In this document: positions 4,506 to 35,538 of the stretch, piece by piece | Layout: each line of letters begins with the position of its first letter | Numbering within the stretch: position 1 is the stretch's first letter | From: a virus | DNA length: 64,000 nt | Reading direction: 5' to 3' (one strand) | Virus record (IMG/VR): IMGVR_UViG_3300043438_000246 | Span: 4,051-68,050 of that record | Made by a program: the position numbers and the translations under genes | The notes under the pieces: model-generated | The model's input: only the letters and a program-made list of their open reading frames with translations | Database searches by the model: none | Told to the model about the DNA's origin: nothing

Positions 4506-4720
4506 TATATATAAAAGATATCTTAAAAACCTCTTACTTTATACTTCTTTTCTTTATATATTTAGTATACACCTTAATACCCTGGATTTCTACTTTTTAA
4601 GTAAAGTTGTTTATAACAATTTTGTAACAATTCTTAATACCCTGGGTTTATAACTTTTTGTTATCATATATATAACGTTTTGTTATAATGTAATATGTCT
4701 ATGTAATTTAATGTTATAAT
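4500..4720. repeat. AT-rich non-coding region with direct and inverted repeats
   Basis: CTTAATACCCTGG at 4573 and 4633; TATAAC-N5-GTTAT(A/C) at 4649 and 4671 (also 3298). Confidence 0.75.
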
Positions 4721-4726
4721 AAAAGC

Positions 4727-4786
4727 GCTGGCCCACTAGATTGCTCTACCCACCCCCACTGCCTCTAGTGGGTTCAGCCTTTATTT
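4727..4786 (+). ncRNA. Candidate ~55-nt hairpin sRNA with a C-rich loop
   Basis: TGTTATAAT 4712-4720; stem GCTG-G-CCCACTAGA/TCTAGTGGG-TT-CAGC; T-rich 3' tail; no ORF. Confidence 0.55.
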
Positions 4787-4804
4787 ATGGTATAATCAAT
4801 GATT

Positions 4805-5215
4805 ATGACATGTTCTTCTTGTTCCCCACAAATTCAAAAATACGGTGCAGATCCTGCCAGTGTTCAATGGAAGGTTGTGCGTGGAGACACAGCAACCCTA
4901 GAGGTTGAGTTTCTTGAGATAGACGAGACTACCCCATTTGACACCGATGGCTGGACGTATAAGGCTACTTCATACGATGCCACGGGTTCAGTGCTAGATG
5001 ACCTTCCAGTAACGGCTACAACAGGAGTTGCTATGATTACAGTAGATCCTTGCATTACTGAAAAATGGGGAACGGCATATAAAACAGTTGTAGCAGAATT
5101 ACCATTTGATTTACAAATTACTATTCCAGCAGCATCGGGAGAACCAACAGTTTGGACACCAGTTATTGGTACAATATGTGTACTAGGTGATATTACTCCA
5201 GGAGGAAGTCTATGA
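4805..5215 (+). CDS. Virion beta-sandwich adaptor protein (paralog of 5312 and 16836)
   Basis: WKVVRGDT...FDLQIT...GTI motif. Confidence 0.7.
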   Translation: MTCSSCSPQIQKYGADPASVQWKVVRGDTATLEVEFLEIDETTPFDTDGWTYKATSYDATGSVLDDLPVTATTGVAMITVDPCITEKWGTAYKTVVAELPFDLQITIPAASGEPTVWTPVIGTICVLGDITPGGSL

Positions 5216-5310
5216 CAGCACTACCGCCAGTTATAAAGATTAATGACACACGTACAAATTTTCCACCTATTGTAAAAGTAAACAATAAAGTTTTTAAGGT
5301 AAAGGGATAA
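5212..5310 (+). CDS. 32-aa microprotein with internal repeat (LPPVIKIN/FPPIVKVN)
   Basis: GGAGG SD, ATGA overlap, fills the gap exactly. Confidence 0.65.
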   Translation: MTALPPVIKINDTRTNFPPIVKVNNKVFKVKG

Positions 5311-5311
5311 C

Positions 5312-5659
5312 ATGGCATTTCCAGGTACATATAATTTTAGTTATTACAAGGGCGATACAAATGAATTTGTTATTCGTCCTAAGAATTCTTCAGGATCAGC
5401 ATTTGACCTAACTGGTTTTAGCGCTGCATTTTTTATTGCATCAGCCCGTGGAGATGATCCTGCTTTCTCAGTTGAAGCACAAGCAGTAGTCAGTGCAGTA
5501 AACGATACAGTTACTTGCACAATTTTGCCAGGTGTTGGAACAACCTTAGATGCAGGTTCATATGTTTATGACGTTCAGATCACATCTGGACCTTCTGTTA
5601 TTTATACAATAATCACAGGAACAATTTCGGTCACAGAACAAGTAACTGGAGCAGCATAA
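5312..5659 (+). CDS. Virion beta-sandwich adaptor protein
   Basis: YKGDT...FDLTG...YVYDVQI...GTISV. Confidence 0.75.
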   Translation: MAFPGTYNFSYYKGDTNEFVIRPKNSSGSAFDLTGFSAAFFIASARGDDPAFSVEAQAVVSAVNDTVTCTILPGVGTTLDAGSYVYDVQITSGPSVIYTIITGTISVTEQVTGAA

Positions 5660-6240
5660 TGACAGATGTCGTTCTAAATAACGATGATGTTACAGTTCTT
5701 GCTCCTCCAGCAATAGTTGAGGTGCTTGTAGATATTGGTCCACAGGGAACTCGTGGAAGCCAGTTTTTTGTCGGGGTAGGAAATCCAAACTCAGTAAGCA
5801 TTGGACAAACACCAAATCTAAATGATTTATATATTAATACATCTCCTGGTGGAGAACTAGGATATTTATATCAATACAGATCAGAACCTGGTGGAAATGT
5901 TTGGGTAGAAGTATTAGATATTTATCCTTCAGTATATTCAGAAAATGCACAAGTTACATTTGAGTCAGGTACTTCAGAAGTTATTATTCCAGTAGCAGAT
6001 ATTGTTACAGTTACTGGTACCCCGCTTGTTTCAGAAAATTTTAGTGTTCAGTACAGTATCGCCCATACTAATCCAGTTGCTTCAGCAATGCAGATTCCAG
6101 CCCTAGTAGGTGCAGGAGATAATCTTGTCATTAATCTTGAAGCCGTTGAGTATGCAGGCGCTGCATGGTCTGCACTAGATGAGTCAGTTACAATTCACTT
6201 CAACATTACCATTGTTGAAGCGGGATCAGTGTCATACTAG
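5659..6240 (+). CDS. Virion structural or fibre-anchoring protein
   Basis: GPQGTRGS...GNP...DLYIN motif common in fibre proteins. Confidence 0.65.
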   Translation: MTDVVLNNDDVTVLAPPAIVEVLVDIGPQGTRGSQFFVGVGNPNSVSIGQTPNLNDLYINTSPGGELGYLYQYRSEPGGNVWVEVLDIYPSVYSENAQVTFESGTSEVIIPVADIVTVTGTPLVSENFSVQYSIAHTNPVASAMQIPALVGAGDNLVINLEAVEYAGAAWSALDESVTIHFNITIVEAGSVSY

Positions 6241-29261: not shown

Positions 29262-29657
29262 ATGAATCCATTAATTAGTCCAAAAACTGGTAAGCCTATT
29301 GTAAGTAATGTCCGTAGACAGGTCATTGAAAAGAAATACAATTGGGGACTTTATGTTTATAAGAAGTCAGATGGCAAATGGTTTACCGACGGAGAAGGCA
29401 ATATCTTAAACATTGAGTCTACTCGTGGAGATATTCTACAAATTACTAAACTTAAAAATGCTGCAAAGCACTATGGTGATGATGGAGAGGGAGAGGCTGT
29501 CTTTGTTCCTGGACTTACCAGAGTTAGCGAAGAAGAGCACTCAGAGCAACTAGATAGAATGATGAACGGACTTATTCCTTCAATGAACGATCTAGGTGCA
29601 TGGAAAGCAGCCCAAGACACAATGAACAAACATGGAAGAGATGCGTACGAAGCATGA
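29262..29657 (+). CDS. Hypothetical protein upstream of portal
   Basis: ORF track; TGGTATACT 7 nt before the ATG. Confidence 0.75.
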   Translation: MNPLISPKTGKPIVSNVRRQVIEKKYNWGLYVYKKSDGKWFTDGEGNILNIESTRGDILQITKLKNAAKHYGDDGEGEAVFVPGLTRVSEEEHSEQLDRMMNGLIPSMNDLGAWKAAQDTMNKHGRDAYEA

Positions 29658-31279
29658 GCGAAGATTACGATTATATTCAAGCAAGTATCAGAACTCAAGA
29701 AGAGTCTGAGAATCTATTTAAGACACAAGATCCATTTGGAAAAGACTGGACAATCTTAAAAGACTATGTTGGCATTGATCAAAACTTTAAACGTAGAACC
29801 TCAAGAACAGTTTCTAAGGCAACATATGCATACAATTCAGTAGAGCCTTCAACACAATATTTAAATTCTGCAAATGCCGTTCCTGCTGGAGACGGTGCAG
29901 AATCAAAGCAAATTAATCCTGGAACGGTATACAGAAATGGATACGGTCTATTTGATGTAATTACACCACCATATAATATGTATGAGTTGGCAAGTTACTA
30001 TGACACATCTTTTGCAAATCATGCTGCTATTGATGCAAAGGTAGAAAATGTTGTTGGTCTTGGATACCGTTTTGATATTACAGATAGAACAATGTTAAGG
30101 TTTGAGACAAACGATGATCAAGGTGCTGTAGATCGTGCACGTCGCAGAATTGAAAGAATGAAACTTGAAATGCGTGAGTGGGTAGAGTCTCTTAATGATG
30201 ATGACTCATTTACAACAAGCATGGAAAAAGTTTATACAGATCTTCAGGCAACTGGAAATGGATTTTTAGAAGTTGGTAGAACAGTAACTGGAGAAATTGG
30301 ATATATTGGACACATCCCATCAACAACTGTGCGTGTAAGAAGACTGCGTGATGGCTTTGTTCAGATTATTGGTCAAAAGGTGGTTTACTTCCGCAACTTT
30401 GGTGCAACTAATACAAACCCAATGACAACAGATACTCGTCCAAATGAAATTATTCACATCAAGGAATATTCTCCATTAAACACATACTATGGAATTCCTG
30501 ACATTATTTCAGCGGTATCATCATTAATTGGTGATTCACTTGCTGCTCAATACAATATAGACTACTTCCAAAATAAGGGAGCCCCAAGATATATTATTAC
30601 AGTCAAGGGTGCAAAACTATCTGCTGATGCAGAAGACAAAATGTTTAGATTCCTTCAGTCTGGACTCAAGGGGCAAAACCATAGAACGCTGTATATCCCA
30701 CTTCCTGGAGATACAGATAACAACAAGGTTGAGTTCAAGATGGAGCCAGTTGAAACTGCAATTCAGGAAGCATCATTTGAAAGATATAGAAAACAAAATC
30801 GTGATGATATTCTTGTAGCACACCAGGTTCCTATTTCAAAACTAGGCGGATCAGATTCAGGCGCTATTGCTGCTGCTATGTCACAGGATAGAACCTTTAA
30901 AGAGCAGGTTGCCCGTCCAGCACAGGCACAACTTGAAAAGGTTATTAATAAGATTATTAAAGAAAAGACAGACATTCTTAGTCTTAAGTTTAATGAACTT
31001 ACACTTACAGATGAGATTGCTCAATCACAAATCATTGAGAGATATGTTAAAACACAAGTTATTACTCCAGATGAGGCTCGTGAATTGATTGACATGCCGC
31101 CAAGAGCAGATGGAGAAGGTAATGCTCCGTTCTCTATGACACCAAGACAAGCAACAGATGCAAGAGCAAATCTTGCTGGCAATCGTCAACGGGATGCTGA
31201 AAGAACAAACAACTCTTCAGACTCTACAGCAACACTTGAAGGTAGAAATCCACAAGGAGAAGGAAGATCATCTCAATAG
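29654..31279 (+). CDS. Portal protein
   Basis: D...TGNGFLEV.R, NEIIH, YYGIPD, YFQN...P..II, RDDIL.AH.VP; ATGA overlap start. Confidence 0.92.
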   Translation: MSEDYDYIQASIRTQEESENLFKTQDPFGKDWTILKDYVGIDQNFKRRTSRTVSKATYAYNSVEPSTQYLNSANAVPAGDGAESKQINPGTVYRNGYGLFDVITPPYNMYELASYYDTSFANHAAIDAKVENVVGLGYRFDITDRTMLRFETNDDQGAVDRARRRIERMKLEMREWVESLNDDDSFTTSMEKVYTDLQATGNGFLEVGRTVTGEIGYIGHIPSTTVRVRRLRDGFVQIIGQKVVYFRNFGATNTNPMTTDTRPNEIIHIKEYSPLNTYYGIPDIISAVSSLIGDSLAAQYNIDYFQNKGAPRYIITVKGAKLSADAEDKMFRFLQSGLKGQNHRTLYIPLPGDTDNNKVEFKMEPVETAIQEASFERYRKQNRDDILVAHQVPISKLGGSDSGAIAAAMSQDRTFKEQVARPAQAQLEKVINKIIKEKTDILSLKFNELTLTDEIAQSQIIERYVKTQVITPDEARELIDMPPRADGEGNAPFSMTPRQATDARANLAGNRQRDAERTNNSSDSTATLEGRNPQGEGRSSQ

Positions 31280-31319
31280 TTGAGAAAACCATAAAAAGGT
31301 TTGATATAATAATACTGCC

Positions 31320-32648
31320 ATGATTATAAATAAAGCACACTGGGTTACTGAAGGCGACAATGTTCGCTTTTCTATGCCAATCGGCAAGGTAGACCAGGAG
31401 CGTAGAATTGTATCAGGTTTTGCAACATTGGACAATATTGACAAGCAAAATGACATTGTTACAACAGAGGCAAGCCTAGAAGCATTTAGAAAATTCCGTG
31501 GAAATCTACGTGAGATGCACCAGCCAAGTGCTGTTGGCAAGATTGTTTCATTTAAAGAGGATCGTTATTTTGAGCCTCAATCAAAAAAGTTTTATAGCGG
31601 GGTATATGTTTCTGCATATGTCTCAAAGGGTGCACAGGATACCTGGGAAAAGGTACTTGATGGCACACTAACTGGTTTTTCAATCGGTGGCAACATCACA
31701 AAGTCAGATGATACCTTTGATGAAAAACTTGATAAATCAGTGCGTATAATTAAAGAGTATGAATTGTTTGAATTATCACTAGTTGATAATCCAGCAAACC
31801 AATTTGCTAATGTTATCTCTATTGAAAAAGTAGACGGTAAGAATACAGTTAGTGGATACCTTTCAAAGACAGAAGTTAAAAACGTATTCTGGGATTCAGA
31901 GAATGATATTGTATTAATGTCAGAAGATGATTCAGCAGATAGTCCTACTTCTGGTAAGCCTATGAAAAATATTGGTTTTGTTGAAAAATCAGATTCAGAA
32001 AATACAGAAAAAATAAAGTTCTTAGTTGATAGTGCAAAAGGCATTAGAACAATTAAGATGACAGAGGAGGAAAATCCTATGACAGAAGAAACAACAATCG
32101 TTAACGCACTAGGTGCTGAGACAGTAGAGTTGGTTGAAAATGTTGAGGTTGCTCCAGAGGCTGCAGCAGTTGCTGTAGAAGAGGCTCCAGTAGAAGTTCC
32201 TGCAGAGGATACTCCTGCTACAGAGCCAGCAGCAGAAGCAGCACCAGAGGCTGAAGAAGCACCTGTTGTTGAAGAAGCAAATGATTCAGTTGATGCTGTT
32301 GTTAATGCAACAGAAGAAGTTGCTAAAGCAGTTTCTTCAATCAATGAAAATCTAACTAATGCCTTGAGCAATCTAGCAGAAACAGTAAAGTCTATGCAGG
32401 CCACTGTTGAAGCAATTACAAAGTCCCTTGATGCCGTTACGGGCGAAGTTAAGTCTGTATCAAATGAGGTAAAAGAAGTTAAGGGTTCTTTTAATGAGTT
32501 TGGAAAGCGAGTAGATATGGTCGAAAAAGACACCGCTTTCCGCAAGTCTGGCGATCTCGGCGAGATTGTACAGGAGTTTTCGGAAACGAAGACTCAAAAA
32601 TCCCTATGGGGCGGTCGTTTCCTCAAAACAGCCGACTTATTCCAATAA
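31320..32648 (+). CDS. Prohead protease fused to an acidic/coiled-coil scaffold
   Basis: VSGFAT...D.Q.D, REMH, TGFSIGG, ELSLVD.PAN; Glu/Ala/Pro-rich linker. Confidence 0.9.
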   Translation: MIINKAHWVTEGDNVRFSMPIGKVDQERRIVSGFATLDNIDKQNDIVTTEASLEAFRKFRGNLREMHQPSAVGKIVSFKEDRYFEPQSKKFYSGVYVSAYVSKGAQDTWEKVLDGTLTGFSIGGNITKSDDTFDEKLDKSVRIIKEYELFELSLVDNPANQFANVISIEKVDGKNTVSGYLSKTEVKNVFWDSENDIVLMSEDDSADSPTSGKPMKNIGFVEKSDSENTEKIKFLVDSAKGIRTIKMTEEENPMTEETTIVNALGAETVELVENVEVAPEAAAVAVEEAPVEVPAEDTPATEPAAEAAPEAEEAPVVEEANDSVDAVVNATEEVAKAVSSINENLTNALSNLAETVKSMQATVEAITKSLDAVTGEVKSVSNEVKEVKGSFNEFGKRVDMVEKDTAFRKSGDLGEIVQEFSETKTQKSLWGGRFLKTADLFQ

Positions 32649-32674
32649 GTACTATTCACTAGGAGGTGAACAAT

Positions 32675-33814
32675 ATGTCGGAACAAGAAATCGTAAAGAA
32701 CTATCCAGGCTCTCCAACCGTAAGCCACCAACACGCAGGTGATGGTGCTTTCGCATCAGGTGATATTGGCGGAGCAACTGCTACCAGCCCAACCACTTCA
32801 AATGTCGGAGCAGAAATGGGAAATATTGCAACAGCGAACTTTGGTGTAACCAACGGTCCTAACGCAATTAATCCAACTGGTACACCTGGAGGTATTCTAC
32901 TTCCAGAACAGGCTCGTCGCTTCATCGACTACGTGTGGGATGCAACAGTTCTCGCCAAAGATGGTCGTAGAGTTACAATGAGAGCAAACACCATGGAACT
33001 TGAAAAAGTTAACGTTGGTGAGCGTGTAATCCGTGCTGCTGCACAGGCAAGCAATGATTATACAAACGCAGGTGCAACATTTACAAAGGTAGAGTTAACA
33101 ACCAAGAAGATTCGTCTTGACTGGGAAGTATCTACAGAAGCACTTGAAGATAATATTGAAGGCGGAGCGCTTGAAGATCATCTAGTTCGCTTGATGACAA
33201 ACGCATTTGCTAACGATATCGAAGACCTTGCTATTAATGGCGATGGTTCAACTGGAAACTTCCTTTCAATCATGGAAGGTTTCGTACACAAGGTAGAGAA
33301 TGATGGCGATGCTCACGAAGCACTCGTTACTGTTACTGATGATAACTGGACAACTGAAGTAATGCAGGATATTATCCTTGCAATGCCACGTAAGTATCGT
33401 GCACTAAAGCAGAACCTAAAGTTCTACGCTGGTACAGATGCATTCCAAGGTATCGTAAAGAACAACGGAACACTTGCTGATGCTATCGCAGAAGCATTTG
33501 CTCCTCGTGCTGCAGGTACAGAGCGCAACCGTCAGGCATACCTTGATGGACAGGCACAGACATTCGGCGGAGCACGTACAACACGTGTTCTTGGAATTGA
33601 CGTACAAGAAGTCCCTTACTACCCAGCAGATTATGTCGACTTGACATTCCCTGCTAACCGTATTTGGGGATTCCAGAGAGATATCACTGTAAACCGTGAA
33701 TACAAGCCAAAGAAGGATACAATTGAATACACAGTATTCGTCCGCTTTGGTCTACAGTGGGAAGAACTTGATGCGGTTGCTTATGCAGACGCAGCATCAG
33801 ATCCTACTGCATAA
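32675..33814 (+). CDS. Major capsid protein (HK97 fold)
   Basis: GGILLPEQ.RRF, LEDNIEG, D.EDLAINGD; GGAGG SD; position after protease. Confidence 0.93.
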   Translation: MSEQEIVKNYPGSPTVSHQHAGDGAFASGDIGGATATSPTTSNVGAEMGNIATANFGVTNGPNAINPTGTPGGILLPEQARRFIDYVWDATVLAKDGRRVTMRANTMELEKVNVGERVIRAAAQASNDYTNAGATFTKVELTTKKIRLDWEVSTEALEDNIEGGALEDHLVRLMTNAFANDIEDLAINGDGSTGNFLSIMEGFVHKVENDGDAHEALVTVTDDNWTTEVMQDIILAMPRKYRALKQNLKFYAGTDAFQGIVKNNGTLADAIAEAFAPRAAGTERNRQAYLDGQAQTFGGARTTRVLGIDVQEVPYYPADYVDLTFPANRIWGFQRDITVNREYKPKKDTIEYTVFVRFGLQWEELDAVAYADAASDPTA

Positions 33815-33834
33815 TAGTTTATAAAAAACTAAAC

Positions 33835-33869
33835 GATAGGGAGGACAGGTCAAACTGTCCTCCTTTATC
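33835..33869 (+). terminator. Intrinsic terminator after the capsid gene
   Basis: GGAGGACAG-gtcaaa-CTGTCCTCC-TTT. Confidence 0.8.
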
Positions 33870-33883
33870 AATTAAGGAGCATT

Positions 33884-34108
33884 ATGTCTTATCCAGGAAG
33901 TCCAACAGTTCCACACCAACATGATGGTGATGGCGCTATTGCAGTAGGCGGGGTAGGCGGGGCAATCATAATGGGTCCAAGTGGTATGATTACACAAAAT
34001 AATGTTTTAGGAAATATACCAACACCAATATTTGGTGATAATATAACAATTTCTGGAACACCAAGCGGTATTAAAAGACCACAAACATTGAGAGCAAGTA
34101 GAAGATAA
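33884..34108 (+). CDS. 74-aa stand-alone paralog of the capsid N-terminal arm
   Basis: 19/25 identities to the MCP N-terminus; AAGGAG SD. Confidence 0.85.
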   Translation: MSYPGSPTVPHQHDGDGAIAVGGVGGAIIMGPSGMITQNNVLGNIPTPIFGDNITISGTPSGIKRPQTLRASRR

Positions 34109-34141
34109 GTTATCTCTGATATAATAGCAGTGGAGGATAAG

Positions 34142-34534
34142 ATGGCAACAACAGTAGAAGTAGTAGAAAAATTTAGTAAGAAAACAGTACCACAACTAAA
34201 AGCCTATGCAAAAAAGAACAATATTGATCTATATGGAACAAGCACAAAAGAAGAAATGCTAGAGGCTATTTTGCCTTTTGTACCAAGAAAAGATGTAGAA
34301 GAAGTAAAAGAAACAAAAAAAGCAGAAGGACCAAAAGAACAAAAAGAAGCGCTAGAGTTTCCAACAGACAAGATGGCTTTGTATTCAGAGCGAAATCTTC
34401 ATTGGAACGGTGTGGGTGCCCTTGAAAAAGGATATAACATTGTCACAAAGGAGGCATCCGTTAAGTGGCTAAATCATAAGGCAGTTCGTGAAGCATCGCC
34501 TAAAGAAGTAGCCAGACATTACGGTAAGATTTAA
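34142..34534 (+). CDS. Rho-N/HeH-like domain protein
   Basis: KKTVPQLKAYAKKNNIDL...KEEMLEAI; GGAGG SD. Confidence 0.7.
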   Translation: MATTVEVVEKFSKKTVPQLKAYAKKNNIDLYGTSTKEEMLEAILPFVPRKDVEEVKETKKAEGPKEQKEALEFPTDKMALYSERNLHWNGVGALEKGYNIVTKEASVKWLNHKAVREASPKEVARHYGKI

Positions 34535-35538
34535 TGCAGATTTTACGTTTACCACCATACCCATTAACCATCTCTTATGATGTGCTTTTACCAAATACTG
34601 ACTACATCCTTGTTATCAATCAAAGCACAAGAAATGTAAATGATGTTACAGAAACTATTGTTTCTACTGCTGGATCAAAACTAGAATACACTCTTCCAGA
34701 CCAGTTTAATTCTTATGATGAGTCTTACTATTTGGCTATCTATGAAGCGGTCTATTCAACTGGCTCTGAATTTCCAGAAGAAGGAGATCTTGTTGTTGAG
34801 GATAATCTAGAAATTATGCGTCCTTATGTAAACCCTACAAAACTAGCACAAAGTTTAGGCTTTACTACAGCAACAGAAATTGCACAATACTTACAATATG
34901 AAAACTTAGCACGAGCAATCATTGATTCTATAGTTCCAGGAGGCTTCTACTATGAGCGTTCATGGTATGAAACAAATGGTAATGGAACAGACTATCTTGG
35001 CATCTGGGATAGAGTATATAAAATTTTAAAGGCATATGAAAACAATGAACTTGTCTGGGATTCAACACAAGATCCTGCAGCATTGTTTGAGTGGAGTTAT
35101 CTATTAACAAAAGACAAGACAGCAATTATTAAAGAGTGGAATCAGCAAATGACTGATTCATATGTTAGAGCAGTTGGAACACCAAAGGGTGTACCACTTG
35201 GAGAGTCAGATTCAATTTATCTTTACGATACAGAAGATAGCCCCGTAACACTAGCAGTAGCCGCAGGAGTAACATTTCCAGTAACATTTAACTATCTATT
35301 CTCGCTTGAAACTGGGTACAAGGTAGTTCCTTATGATATTCAAGATGCCGCAACAATGCTTATTGATGACATTAAATGTGGCAAAATGGAATACCACAAG
35401 AGATATATTCTTGATTATTCTACAGACCAATACAAGATTAAGATTGACAAGTCTGCACTTAGCGGAACAGGCAATATCCTAGTAGACAAAATCCTAGAAA
35501 AGTATATTACGAACTTTGGCACACCTGGAGTTTTATAA
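34534..35538 (+). CDS. Head-tail adaptor
   Basis: Position; AR.IIDS, GY..VP.DI..A..MLI, TGN..VD.IL.KY. Confidence 0.75.
   Translation: MQILRLPPYPLTISYDVLLPNTDYILVINQSTRNVNDVTETIVSTAGSKLEYTLPDQFNSYDESYYLAIYEAVYSTGSEFPEEGDLVVEDNLEIMRPYVNPTKLAQSLGFTTATEIAQYLQYENLARAIIDSIVPGGFYYERSWYETNGNGTDYLGIWDRVYKILKAYENNELVWDSTQDPAALFEWSYLLTKDKTAIIKEWNQQMTDSYVRAVGTPKGVPLGESDSIYLYDTEDSPVTLAVAAGVTFPVTFNYLFSLETGYKVVPYDIQDAATMLIDDIKCGKMEYHKRYILDYSTDQYKIKIDKSALSGTGNILVDKILEKYITNFGTPGVL

What the first reader, a model, noticed from the sequence alone, without database searches (positions are those of the whole stretch)
33884..34108. A free-standing gene encoding only the capsid protein's N-terminal arm
Seen: YPGSPTVPHQHDGDGAIAVGGVGGA...GNIPTPIFG...GTPSGIKRP aligns with MCP YPGSPTVSHQHAGDGAFASGDIGGA...GNIATANFG...GTPGGILLP (32702 to about 32910), with 19/25 identities in the first block. 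It stops where the HK97 core begins and ends in a basic tail (KRPQTLRASRR). It has an intact frame and its own AAGGAG SD, and lies just past the capsid terminator, so it should be made at low level. Known: HK97-fold N-arms make inter-capsomer contacts. Inference: a substoichiometric surrogate arm filling sites where MCP arms are missing (for example around the portal vertex), a size or assembly modulator, or a decoy for capsid-sensing defences.
Basis: partly seen in the sequence, partly recalled or inferred. Interest (0 to 1): 0.8.

Follow-up and report, generated by a model that had tools for sequence, protein, structure and literature searches.

The report
Free-standing copy of capsid N-terminal extension
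A small, well-conserved phage gene right after the major capsid gene encodes only a copy of that capsid protein's extra N-terminal segment plus a basic tail; it is clearly kept by selection yet often missing in close relatives, so it is probably an optional capsid-associated helper of a kind not described before.

Summary
ORF 33884-34108 (+, 74 aa) matches residues 9-81 of the neighbouring major capsid protein (MCP): 48% identity, E 5e-17.

The copied part is not the canonical HK97 N-arm. It is a roughly 52-65-residue, lineage-specific N-terminal extension that lies before the Phage_capsid profile and is absent from Streptomyces-phage relatives.

- **Real and selected.** 49 distinct proteins in 78 loci (window included) were all intact except one contig-cut and one fusion. 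The wider family holds at least 188 clusters. Omega is about 0.05-0.06, and omega=1 is rejected.
- **One origin.** All minis separate from all MCP arms on one branch (99 SH-aLRT).
- **Optional.** The gene is present in 32 and absent in 47 of the 80 nearest MCP loci. Phages whose MCPs differ by only 2 residues occur with and without it.
- **Fixed position.** It always sits between a strong hairpin after the MCP gene and a conserved -10-like motif.
- **Shared motifs.** Arm and mini keep the same motifs, and both switched HxH to LN in one clade.
- **Unfolded alone.** AF2 gives no stable fold for the mini on its own.

Function is inferred only. My best guess is an optional, unstructured capsid-associated accessory protein that docks as the MCP extension does.

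The parts
31300..31310 (+). -10-like motif TTTGATATAAT just upstream of the protease-scaffold gene; probable start of the protease-MCP(-mini) transcription unit
   Evidence: TCTGATATAAT with up to 1 mismatch occurs 10 times in the window against 2.45 expected (0 of 100 shuffles reach 10); 9 of the 10 are on the + strand.
31320..32648 (+). Prohead protease fused to a coiled-coil scaffold-like C-terminal half (442 aa)
   Evidence: Peptidase_S78 E 2.5e-8 and S78_2 E 2.5e-5; phrog_9427 head maturation protease E 5e-119. No similarity to the mini (E 1.4).
32675..33814 (+). Major capsid protein, 379 aa (ATG at 32675; AGGAGG at 32661-32666)
   Evidence: Phage_capsid matches residues 72-244; phrog_1623 E 7e-73 matches residues 70-372; 42% identity to Streptomyces phage Patelgo MCP from residue 74 on.
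32702..32917 (+). MCP N-terminal extension (residues 10-81), the source and paralogue of the mini gene. Motifs: YPG-HxH-GDGA and GPNA(I/V)NPTGTPGGILLPEQ.
   Evidence: The extension is absent from Patelgo MCP and from most representatives.
33835..33869 (+). Strong hairpin after the MCP stop, with a weak U tract; a leaky terminator or RNA 3' stabiliser
   Evidence: dG -25.2 kcal/mol, z -5.8; a hairpin is present in 43 of 43 distinct mini-bearing and 34 of 34 mini-less intergenic regions; not called a + strand terminator.
33874..33879 (+). Shine-Dalgarno AAGGAG of the mini gene, 4 nt before the ATG
   Evidence: AGGAG-like sequence lies upstream of the listed copies.
33884..34108 (+). Mini gene, 74 aa: a free-standing paralogue of the MCP extension with a basic C-terminal tail (KRPQTLRASRR)
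34115..34125 (+). -10-like motif TCTGATATAAT immediately after the mini stop; probable promoter of the next gene
   Evidence: TGNTANAAT lies just after the mini stop in 43 of 43 configurations and in the MCP-to-next-gene gap of 34 of 34 mini-less loci.
34142..34534 (+). Next gene: 130-aa protein with a Rho_N/SAP-like N-terminal domain. It is the ancestral neighbour of the MCP gene.
   Evidence: Rho_N E 6.5e-6; it directly follows the MCP in mini-less loci; a 133-aa gene sits in the same position in Patelgo.

Best explanation
SHOWN
- The 74-aa ORF is a genuine protein-coding gene.
- It arose once, by partial duplication of the 5' end of the MCP gene: the lineage-specific N-terminal extension plus the first residues of the N-arm helix.
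- It sits between the hairpin that follows the MCP gene and the promoter-like motif of the next gene.
- It has been kept under strong purifying selection (omega about 0.05).
- It is repeatedly lost or swapped out by recombination at the MCP 3' boundary.
- It keeps the two sequence motifs that are also the conserved parts of the MCP extension: an N-terminal YPG...HxH (or LN)...GxGA, and a C-terminal GPNAVNPxGTPxGI-x-LP-x-Q.
- Its middle became more hydrophobic (VIIMGPxG). The shell-forming part of the MCP is replaced by a short basic tail.

INFERRED
- It is made late, from the protease-MCP transcript by read-through of the hairpin, and so at a lower level than the MCP.
- It is an intrinsically unstructured, optional capsid-associated accessory protein. 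It docks on the same surface or partner that the MCP's own extension uses, acting as an extra 'arm in trans'.
- The basic tail adds an electrostatic anchor, either to the acidic capsid or scaffold surface or to DNA.
- It improves assembly or stability but is not required.
For: - **Paralogy.**: E 5e-17.
- **Intactness and spread.** 78 loci (window included) hold 49 distinct proteins; all begin MSY and are intact except L010 (cut by the contig end) and L017 (a fusion). At least 188 clusters of 70-87 aa exist in the 5.8-billion-protein collection, none with a Pfam domain. The 'longer' search found the module only in MCPs of 245-392 aa: all 120 listed of 170 hits.
- **Selection.** Omega is 0.058 for the mini, 0.129 for the MCP arm and 0.085 for the MCP core. 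lnL is -3963.6 free against -4522.4 with omega fixed at 1. Three subclades give 0.049-0.063. For close pairs, pN/pS is 0.135.
- **Single origin.** 47 minis and 76 arms are split by one branch, 99 SH-aLRT. No independent duplication was found in 217 assessable loci of more distant MCP lineages.
- **Fixed architecture.**: 43/43, 0/43 and 43/43 as described above.
- **Shared constraint with the arm.** 11 alignment columns keep the same residue in at least 80% of both families. Of 72 distinct arm+mini pairs, 62 are HxH/HxH, 10 are LN/LN and 0 are discordant. The shared derived motif uses different codons in the two copies, as does the first block in the window, so it is kept at the protein level rather than by recent conversion.
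- **No fold alone.** AF2 with 140 sequences gives pLDDT 53 and pTM 0.19, as expected for a peptide that orders only on a partner.
- **A precedent.** The small accessory protein gp4 of Patience-like phages is a random coil when free and ordered inside hexamers (PMC11965321, passages read).
Against: - There is no direct evidence that the protein is in virions or binds the MCP.
- The gene is dispensable. It is absent in 47 of 79 assessable nearest loci, and L030 (none) and L033 (mini) have MCPs that differ by 2 residues. No MCP position changes consistently with loss.
- The HxH/LN concordance traces to one event in one clade.
- The link between mini presence and arm HxH is not significant on independent pairs: 7 pairs, median p 0.5.
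- The within-genome excess of mini-arm identity is small (0.477 against 0.450) and is largely one block of related clades.
- The patchy distribution and the faster amino-acid divergence than the MCP core (for example 58-65% against about 93% identity) would also fit a non-structural accessory gene such as an anti-defence factor.
- It is not known whether the MCP extension lies inside or outside the shell, or whether it is cleaved off.
Confidence: 0.4

Rival explanations
1. Propeptide mimic acting inside the procapsid. The MCP extension is a propeptide or handle that the protease-scaffold protein recognises. The free copy is co-assembled inside the procapsid by the same contacts and may be cut by the prohead protease. 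It then either modulates assembly and maturation timing, or leaves a basic peptide that binds the packaged DNA.
For: - The gene lies in the protease-MCP unit.
- The most conserved shared motif sits immediately before the N-arm helix, where propeptide cleavage would be expected (the expectation rests on general knowledge of HK97 and T4 maturation, recalled).
- The tail is strongly basic in all 140 members.
- The protease-scaffold protein has a long acidic Pro/Glu/Ala linker (translation).
- The mini has no fold of its own.
Against: - No cleavage site is known.
- The mini lacks the MCP leader MSEQEIVKN.
- It has no sequence likeness to the scaffold.
- Dispensability with an unchanged MCP argues against a core assembly role.
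- This pairing was not tested by complex prediction; the single job went to MCP + mini.
Confidence: 0.2
2. Decoy or anti-defence factor. The free extension imitates the accessible N-terminus of newly made MCP and occupies a host sensor that would otherwise detect capsid protein, or it acts on another host target.
For: - The gene is patchy: at least 7-9 gains or losses on the MCP tree.
- It is exchanged as a module by recombination.
- It evolves faster at the amino-acid level than the MCP core.
- It is small, unstructured and strongly selected.
- That capsid proteins commonly trigger bacterial defences is general knowledge (recalled; no paper on this was read here).
Against: - Its placement is late and dependent on read-through: behind the MCP hairpin, with no -10-like motif of its own in 0 of 43 configurations. 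That gives it no head start over the MCP.
- No defence system or host is known for this uncultured phage.
- The PADLOC library was not searched.
- The mini-like module occurs only in MCPs and minis.
Confidence: 0.12
3. One reading: a substoichiometric surrogate arm that fills sites where MCP arms are missing, for example around the portal vertex. This is a special case of the best explanation.
For: The evidence is the same as for the best explanation. In addition, lower expression than the MCP is plausible from the hairpin architecture.
Against: Every capsid has a portal vertex, yet 47 of 79 close relatives lack the gene, and the same MCP works without it. Nothing places the protein at a particular site.
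Confidence: 0.08
4. Duplication debris: a leftover fragment of a tandem MCP duplication with no function of its own.
For: - The origin clearly is a partial duplication.
- The repeats still recombine: L057 carries a second partial MCP copy between a truncated and a full mini.
- The gene is often absent.
Against: - Omega is about 0.05, with omega=1 rejected by 2dlnL of about 1118.
- Start, Shine-Dalgarno sequence and frame are intact in 47 distinct complete copies, down to 42% identity.
- The length is conserved at 69-85 aa and the tail is always basic.
- The family is old enough for synonymous sites to be near saturation.
Confidence: 0.02

Closest known systems
gp4 accessory protein of Patience-like actinobacteriophages (PMC11965321; passages read)
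   Same: It is a small protein (54 aa in Adjutor). It is a random coil when free and ordered only in the capsid. It is an add-on that contacts only the major capsid protein, in phages of Actinobacteria.
   Different: The passages read report no homology of gp4 to its MCP. It forms a helix and dimers inside skewed hexamers, and it is shown to be in virions. Here the protein is a paralogue of the MCP's own N-terminal extension, is predicted to be mostly coil with one beta hairpin, and its presence in virions is untested.
Full-length MCP paralogues used as special capsid subunits or size redirectors: T4 gp24 vertex protein (recalled) and SaPIbov5 Ccm (abstract seen in the listing, PMC8569155)
   Same: These are capsid-gene duplicates or homologues that take part in capsid assembly beside the MCP.
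   Different: They keep the whole HK97 fold and become shell subunits. The mini has none of the fold: no Phage_capsid match, and only the segment upstream of the fold.
SaPI1 CpmB (abstract seen in the listing, PMC5644958; mechanism partly recalled)
   Same: It is a small protein that imitates one interacting end of an assembly protein and so competes for a capsid-protein contact.
   Different: CpmB imitates the scaffold, is encoded by a satellite, and shrinks the capsid. The mini imitates the MCP itself, is encoded by the phage, and has no likeness to the scaffold.
Phage decoration or cement proteins such as lambda gpD and T4 Soc/Hoc (review PMC7602432, abstract only; details recalled)
   Same: They are optional, encoded next to the capsid gene, patchy among relatives, and bind the outside of the shell.
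   Different: Known decoration proteins have folds of their own and are not derived from the MCP N-terminus. The mini matches no PHROG or Pfam family.
Cleaved N-terminal MCP segments: HK97 delta domain and T4 gp23 propeptide (recalled)
   Same: They occupy the same position, N-terminal to the HK97 fold.
   Different: Those segments are part of the MCP chain and are never encoded separately. Whether this extension is cleaved is unknown.

Membership tests
HK97-fold major capsid protein (Pfam PF05065 Phage_capsid / phrog_1623) | Sequence match to the family profile | tested here: not met
   Searches give 0 families for the 74-aa protein at E up to 0.01. The neighbouring MCP matches both profiles from residue 70-72 on.
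HK97-fold major capsid protein | Length and fold (P domain, A domain, E loop) | tested here: not met
   The protein has 74 aa. AF2 gives pLDDT 53 and a single short hairpin.
Canonical HK97 N-arm | Homology to the segment that begins the conserved family alignment (ILLPEQARRFIDY...) | tested here: not met
   The homology covers MCP residues 9-81. Only the last ~8 residues overlap the start of the conserved region. The rest is a lineage-specific insertion that is absent in Patelgo and in most representatives.
Paralogue family of the MCP N-terminal extension (the family proposed here) | Significant similarity to the extension of the MCP encoded directly upstream | tested here: met
   E 5e-17; reciprocal tblastn hits in the loci; 124 paired loci.
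Paralogue family of the MCP N-terminal extension | One origin, distinct from all MCP arms | tested here: met
   47 minis against 76 arms on one branch, 99 SH-aLRT.
Paralogue family of the MCP N-terminal extension | Purifying selection on the protein | tested here: met
   omega 0.049-0.063.
Phage decoration / cement proteins | Match to a described decoration family | tested here: not met
   no PHROG match; no Pfam match; no tblastn match in 50,697 phage records at E up to 1.
Phage decoration / cement proteins | Presence on the virion surface | not testable with these tools
   This needs proteomics or cryo-EM. The complex prediction gave no answer.
Patience gp4-like accessory proteins | Small, disordered when free | tested here: met
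   74 aa. AF2 gives pLDDT 53 and pTM 0.19 with a 140-sequence alignment. This is a prediction, not a measurement.
Patience gp4-like accessory proteins | Sequence homology to gp4 | not tested
   No gp4 sequence was fetched. Indirect only: no phage record matches the mini.
Scaffold mimics (CpmB-like) | Similarity to the phage's scaffold protein | tested here: not met
   the best BLASTP E against the protease-scaffold protein is 1.4.
Small membrane protein (holin-like) | A conserved hydrophobic transmembrane stretch | tested here: not met
   The Gly-rich hydrophobic stretch of the window's copy is replaced by polar T/N-rich sequence in other subclades, for example GGTTNTVITNPNGTITE.

The most novel reading that the evidence does not exclude
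The mini is a capsid 'arm in trans', the first accessory capsid protein known to have evolved from the capsid protein's own N-terminal extension. It would pair with MCP extensions through the shared HxH(or LN)-GxG motif, possibly a metal-bridged homotypic contact. It would add extra staples, or a DNA- or surface-binding basic tail, to an otherwise unchanged shell. Phage lineages would gain and lose this module by recombination to tune capsid stability or capacity.
Probability: 0.2. Interest if true: 0.8.

Novelty: new variant of a known kind. Interest (0 to 1): 0.58.

Why it matters
If the protein is capsid-associated, it shows a new and simple evolutionary route to accessory capsid proteins. 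The route is to duplicate only the flexible arm of the capsid protein, cut it free, and let it bind in trans.

It also offers a natural with/without experiment. Near-identical capsid proteins occur with and without the gene in abundant, uncultured freshwater phages related to Streptomyces Stanwilliamsviridae.

If the protein is instead a decoy or a propeptide mimic, it would be a new way for a phage to regulate or hide its own capsid protein.

In every case it defines an unannotated family of at least 188 sequence clusters with clear signs of function.

Tried and rejected
- **Structure of the MCP.** AF2 with 86 close relatives failed (pLDDT 36), so the location of the extension on the fold could not be read. 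No fold search was run, because both models are of low confidence.
- **Structure of the mini.** pLDDT 53. I used this only as a hint of disorder.
- **Complex prediction.** MCP residues 76-379 in 2 copies plus the mini, both with alignments: 'no answer', score 0.00 against a mark of 0.32, controls not run. This is neither for nor against binding.
- **Metatranscriptomes.**
  - In three lake/freshwater RNA runs (X2, X3, X5), Logan contigs cover the MCP gene but not bins 33858-34139.
  - As the tool states, a part without cover is no finding. Contigs cannot give expression levels, and the strains in those samples may lack a near-identical mini.
  - In run X1 one 418-nt contig spans 33722-34140: the MCP 3' end, the hairpin and the whole mini.
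  - X1 covers 29 of 30 bins at similar depth, so DNA carry-over cannot be excluded.
- **ESM Atlas.** The best score was 0.84, below the level at which hits mean anything.
- **Solved structures.** There is no sequence relative of the MCP in the PDB (best E 0.2).
- **Co-evolution tests.**
  - Within-genome mini-arm identity exceeds between-genome identity: 0.477 against 0.450 for 44 genomes, and 0.465 against 0.432 for 13 clade representatives.
  - The excess is mostly one block of related clades, and the permutation ignores relatedness.
  - Mini presence against arm HxH on independent pairs is not significant.
  - The HxH-to-LN switch is a single event.
- **MCP residues that change with loss of the mini.** Only generally hypervariable positions recur, with no consistent direction.
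- **Independent duplications in more distant MCP lineages.** None in 217 assessable loci. Seven marginal 'self-hits' (E 0.001-0.01) were low-complexity matches to the Rho_N-domain gene.
- **Read-through fusion of MCP and mini.** Rejected: three in-frame stops lie between them, and the spacer length varies from 63 to 78 nt among loci.
- **Transmembrane peptide.** Rejected; see the membership test.
- **Literature.** Searches found no description of a free-standing gene for an MCP N-terminal segment; (all four terms required) returned 0 papers. Only listings and abstracts were seen, except for passages of PMC11965321. They could hold virion proteomes of related phages.

Full report
**1. What is there**

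The window is part of a 68-kb IMG/VR virus record estimated at 63% complete. Around the finding lies a standard head module on the + strand:
- portal, 29600-31279 (Phage_portal, phrog_12);
- a 442-aa prohead protease fused to a coiled-coil, scaffold-like half, 31320-32648 (Peptidase_S78; phrog_9427, E 5e-119);
- the major capsid protein (MCP), 32675-33814 (Phage_capsid; phrog_1623, E 7e-73).

The reported ORF is 33884-34108: ATG start, 74 aa, with AAGGAG 4 nt upstream. It is followed by a 130-aa protein with a Rho_N/SAP-like domain, 34142-34534.

The nearest named phages are the roughly 130-kb Streptomyces siphoviruses of Stanwilliamsviridae (cluster BE). They match at about 66% nucleotide identity, over the protease and MCP genes only. 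The mini protein has no tblastn match in 50,697 phage records.

**2.

Mini residues 2-70 align with MCP residues 9-81 at 48% identity, E 5e-17. In the first 25-codon block 19 residues are identical. Eight of those use different codons (pS 0.55, pN 0.20), so the likeness is ancient and maintained, not a recent copy.

The copied segment is not the canonical HK97 N-arm:
- The Pfam and PHROG profiles begin at MCP residues 72 and 70.
- The Patelgo MCP (331 aa) aligns from our residue 74 to its residue 22. Its N-terminus runs straight from a short leader into GGGGLLNAEQADRFIDY.
- Among the 150 best of 985 representatives, most align from our residues ~69-72 to their residues ~17-25.

The segment is therefore an insertion of about 52-65 residues that is specific to this freshwater lineage. 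A few more distant MCPs carry other long Gly/Ser/Thr-rich N-termini.

**3. It is a real, selected gene**

In the IMG/VR loci fetched with the MCP and with the mini, plus the window, I found the mini in 78 loci as 49 distinct proteins. All start MSY and have an AGGAG-like site upstream. All are intact, with two exceptions: L010 is cut by the contig end, and L017 has MCP residue ~346 joined to mini residue 28. Identity to the window's copy falls to 42%, while lengths stay within 69-85 aa.

A profile search of 5.8 billion proteins found 188 clusters of 70-87 aa. None has a Pfam domain, and those that carry a name are almost all 'hypothetical protein'. The search among longer proteins found the module only at the N-terminus of MCPs: all 120 listed of 170 hits are 245-392 aa.

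Selection measures:

| Measure | Mini | MCP arm | MCP core |
|---|---|---|---|
| Codon-model omega, whole set | 0.058 | 0.129 | 0.085 |
| Omega in three subclades | 0.049-0.063 | 0.10-0.15 | 0.06-0.10 |
| Nei-Gojobori pN/pS, close pairs (dS 0.02-0.3) | 0.135 | 0.227 | 0.086 |

Fixing omega at 1 lowers lnL from -3963.6 to -4522.4. At larger distances the uncorrected pN/pS ratios rise through saturation, and the whole-set tree is long. The subclade and close-pair values are therefore the safer ones.

**4. Origin and distribution**

In a tree of 47 distinct minis and 76 distinct MCP arms, one branch (99 SH-aLRT) separates the two groups. This points to one duplication that predates the diversification of this phage group.

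No independent duplication exists in a wider sample. In 238 loci fetched with three distant MCPs, 217 were assessable. Only 4 carried a mini, all of an already known type; the other 'self-hits' were low-complexity noise.

Among the 80 loci nearest to the window's MCP, the mini is present in 32, absent in 47 and undecidable in 1. On the MCP-core tree this needs 9 changes, at least 7 of them forced by well-supported branches.

Where the gene is absent, the MCP stop is followed after 76-117 nt by the Rho_N-domain gene. L030/L032 (no mini) and L031/L033 (mini) have nearly the same MCP. L030 and L033 differ by 0 residues in the arm and 2 in the core. Their sequences diverge abruptly right after the MCP stop codon, hairpin included. 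The gene is therefore gained and lost by exchange of the downstream module, and the same capsid protein works with or without it.

**5. Expression context**

| Feature | Mini-bearing configurations (43 distinct) | Mini-less loci (34 distinct) |
|---|---|---|
| Stable hairpin after the MCP stop | 43 | 34 |
| TGNTANAAT between MCP stop and mini | 0 | not applicable |
| TGNTANAAT just after the mini stop, or in the gap | 43 | 34 |

In the window the hairpin (33835-33869) has dG -25.2 kcal/mol and z -5.8. Its U tract is weak, and the consensus scan did not call it a + strand terminator.

The motif TCTGATATAAT (up to 1 mismatch) occurs 10 times in the window against 2.45 expected. Nine copies are on the + strand, including one just before the protease gene.

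The simplest reading is that the mini is the last gene of the protease-MCP transcript and is reached only by read-through of the hairpin. This is an inference. The contig-level RNA data cannot test it (see Tried and rejected).

**6. Anatomy of the protein**

Both families keep an N-terminal motif (YPG, then HxH or LN, then GxGA) and a C-terminal motif. The C-terminal motif reads GPNAVNPTGTPGGILLPEQ in MCPs and GPNAVNPSGTPSGIRLPxQNNF in most minis. The window's subclade has a 5-residue deletion there. Eleven columns hold the same residue in at least 80% of both families.

The differences are systematic:
- The mini lacks the MCP leader MSEQEIVKN.
- Its middle is more hydrophobic: VIIMGPxG against ATATSPTTS.
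- LL in GILLP becomes basic.
- The chain ends in a basic tail. The last 15 residues have a median net charge of +5 and a minimum of +2, whereas the arms have a net charge of about -2.

AF2 with 140 sequences finds no fold beyond one short hairpin: pLDDT 53, pTM 0.19.

**7. Does it co-vary with the MCP arm?**

In 72 distinct arm+mini pairs the motif type always agrees: 62 are HxH/HxH, 10 are LN/LN and 0 are mixed. The LN genomes form one clade (93.5 support on the core tree, not rejected on the mini tree), so this is one event.

It is still a striking event. Both copies acquired the same derived P-[LI]-N-G-E-G sequence, and today the two copies use different codons for it. The best explanation is an old sequence exchange between the copies followed by protein-level selection in both.

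The other tests are weak:
- The within-genome excess of identity is small.
- The independent-pairs test is not significant.
- No MCP position tracks loss of the mini.

That the two copies do recombine is suggested by L057. There a truncated mini start, a second partial MCP copy and a full mini follow the MCP. An assembly artefact cannot be excluded.

**8. Interpretation**

The following is shown:
- It is a conserved, selected but optional small protein.
- It is derived once from the MCP's own N-terminal extension.
- It shares that extension's conserved motifs.
- It is encoded at the tail of the capsid transcript.

The following is inferred:
- **Best guess (about 0.4).** It acts on the same partner or site as the extension and is most likely an unstructured capsid-associated accessory protein. 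The closest functional precedent I could read is gp4 of Patience-like actinophages, which is small, coil-like when free, and ordered within hexamers (PMC11965321, passages).
- **Propeptide mimic inside the procapsid (about 0.2).**
- **Decoy or anti-defence role (about 0.12).**
It is disfavoured because the gene is dispensable with an unchanged MCP.
- **Pure debris (about 0.02).** It is excluded by the selection data.
- **Remainder.** The remaining probability is for functions I have not thought of.

**9. Novelty**

My five literature searches found no description of a free-standing gene for only the N-terminal segment of a capsid protein (listings and abstracts only; supplements closed). The family matches no Pfam or PHROG model.

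I rate it a new variant of a known kind, namely capsid accessory proteins or capsid-gene paralogues. The interest is moderate to high because the function is unproven and the phage is uncultured. The natural with/without pairs nevertheless make it directly testable.

Noticed in passing
window 31300-31310, 34115-34125 and 8 other sites; all related loci: An extended -10-like motif, TCTGATATAAT (TGNTANAAT), is over-represented: 10 copies against 2.45 expected, 9 of them on the + strand. It is conserved upstream of the Rho_N-domain gene in 77 of 77 distinct intergenic configurations. It is probably the phage's late, or general, promoter element.
   Followed up: partly
window 34142-34534; L129 5941-6342: A ~130-aa protein with an N-terminal Rho_N/SAP-like domain and a conserved C-terminal half always follows the capsid gene. 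This also holds in Streptomyces phage Patelgo (gp29, 133 aa). It has no assigned function and could be a head-associated DNA-binding protein.
   Followed up: partly
L057 about 4618-6007: After the MCP come a truncated mini start (14 codons, then out of frame), a second partial MCP copy (from about residue 103 to the end) and then a full mini. This looks like unequal recombination between the arm and the mini repeats, or an assembly artefact.
   Followed up: partly
L017 about 1716: The MCP reading frame, at about residue 346, runs directly into mini residue 28. This is a deletion variant or a chimeric contig, and it is the only disrupted mini seen.
   Followed up: no
alignment A4; for example L005, L055, L114: 22 of 140 minis carry two conserved Cys (GDGC... 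and ...LGC) in addition to HxH, giving a possible His2Cys2 metal site. The MCP arm sequences printed contain no Cys.
   Followed up: no
window 32100-32300 (protease-scaffold gene): A locally GC-rich stretch (0.495 against 0.38 for the window) encodes a very acidic Pro/Glu/Ala linker between the protease domain and the coiled-coil half.
   Followed up: no
proteins P0244, P0245, P0247, P0250: In the wider MCP family the N-terminal region before the conserved G-G-I-L-x-P-x-Q-x-R-x-F-I-D-Y varies in length (about 20-110 aa) and is rich in Gly/Ser/Thr/Ala/Pro. It is a hypervariable appendage of unknown role.
   Followed up: partly
whole window: The 64-kb window contains no tRNA gene. The related Streptomyces cluster BE phages are reported to carry 39-48 tRNAs and a tmRNA (abstracts listed).
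   Followed up: no
window 31320-35538 in run X1: A library labelled marine metatranscriptome holds near-identical sequence over 29 of 30 bins of this stretch at similar depth. The three lake/freshwater RNA runs hold mainly the MCP gene. DNA carry-over or an estuarine sample may explain the difference.
   Followed up: no
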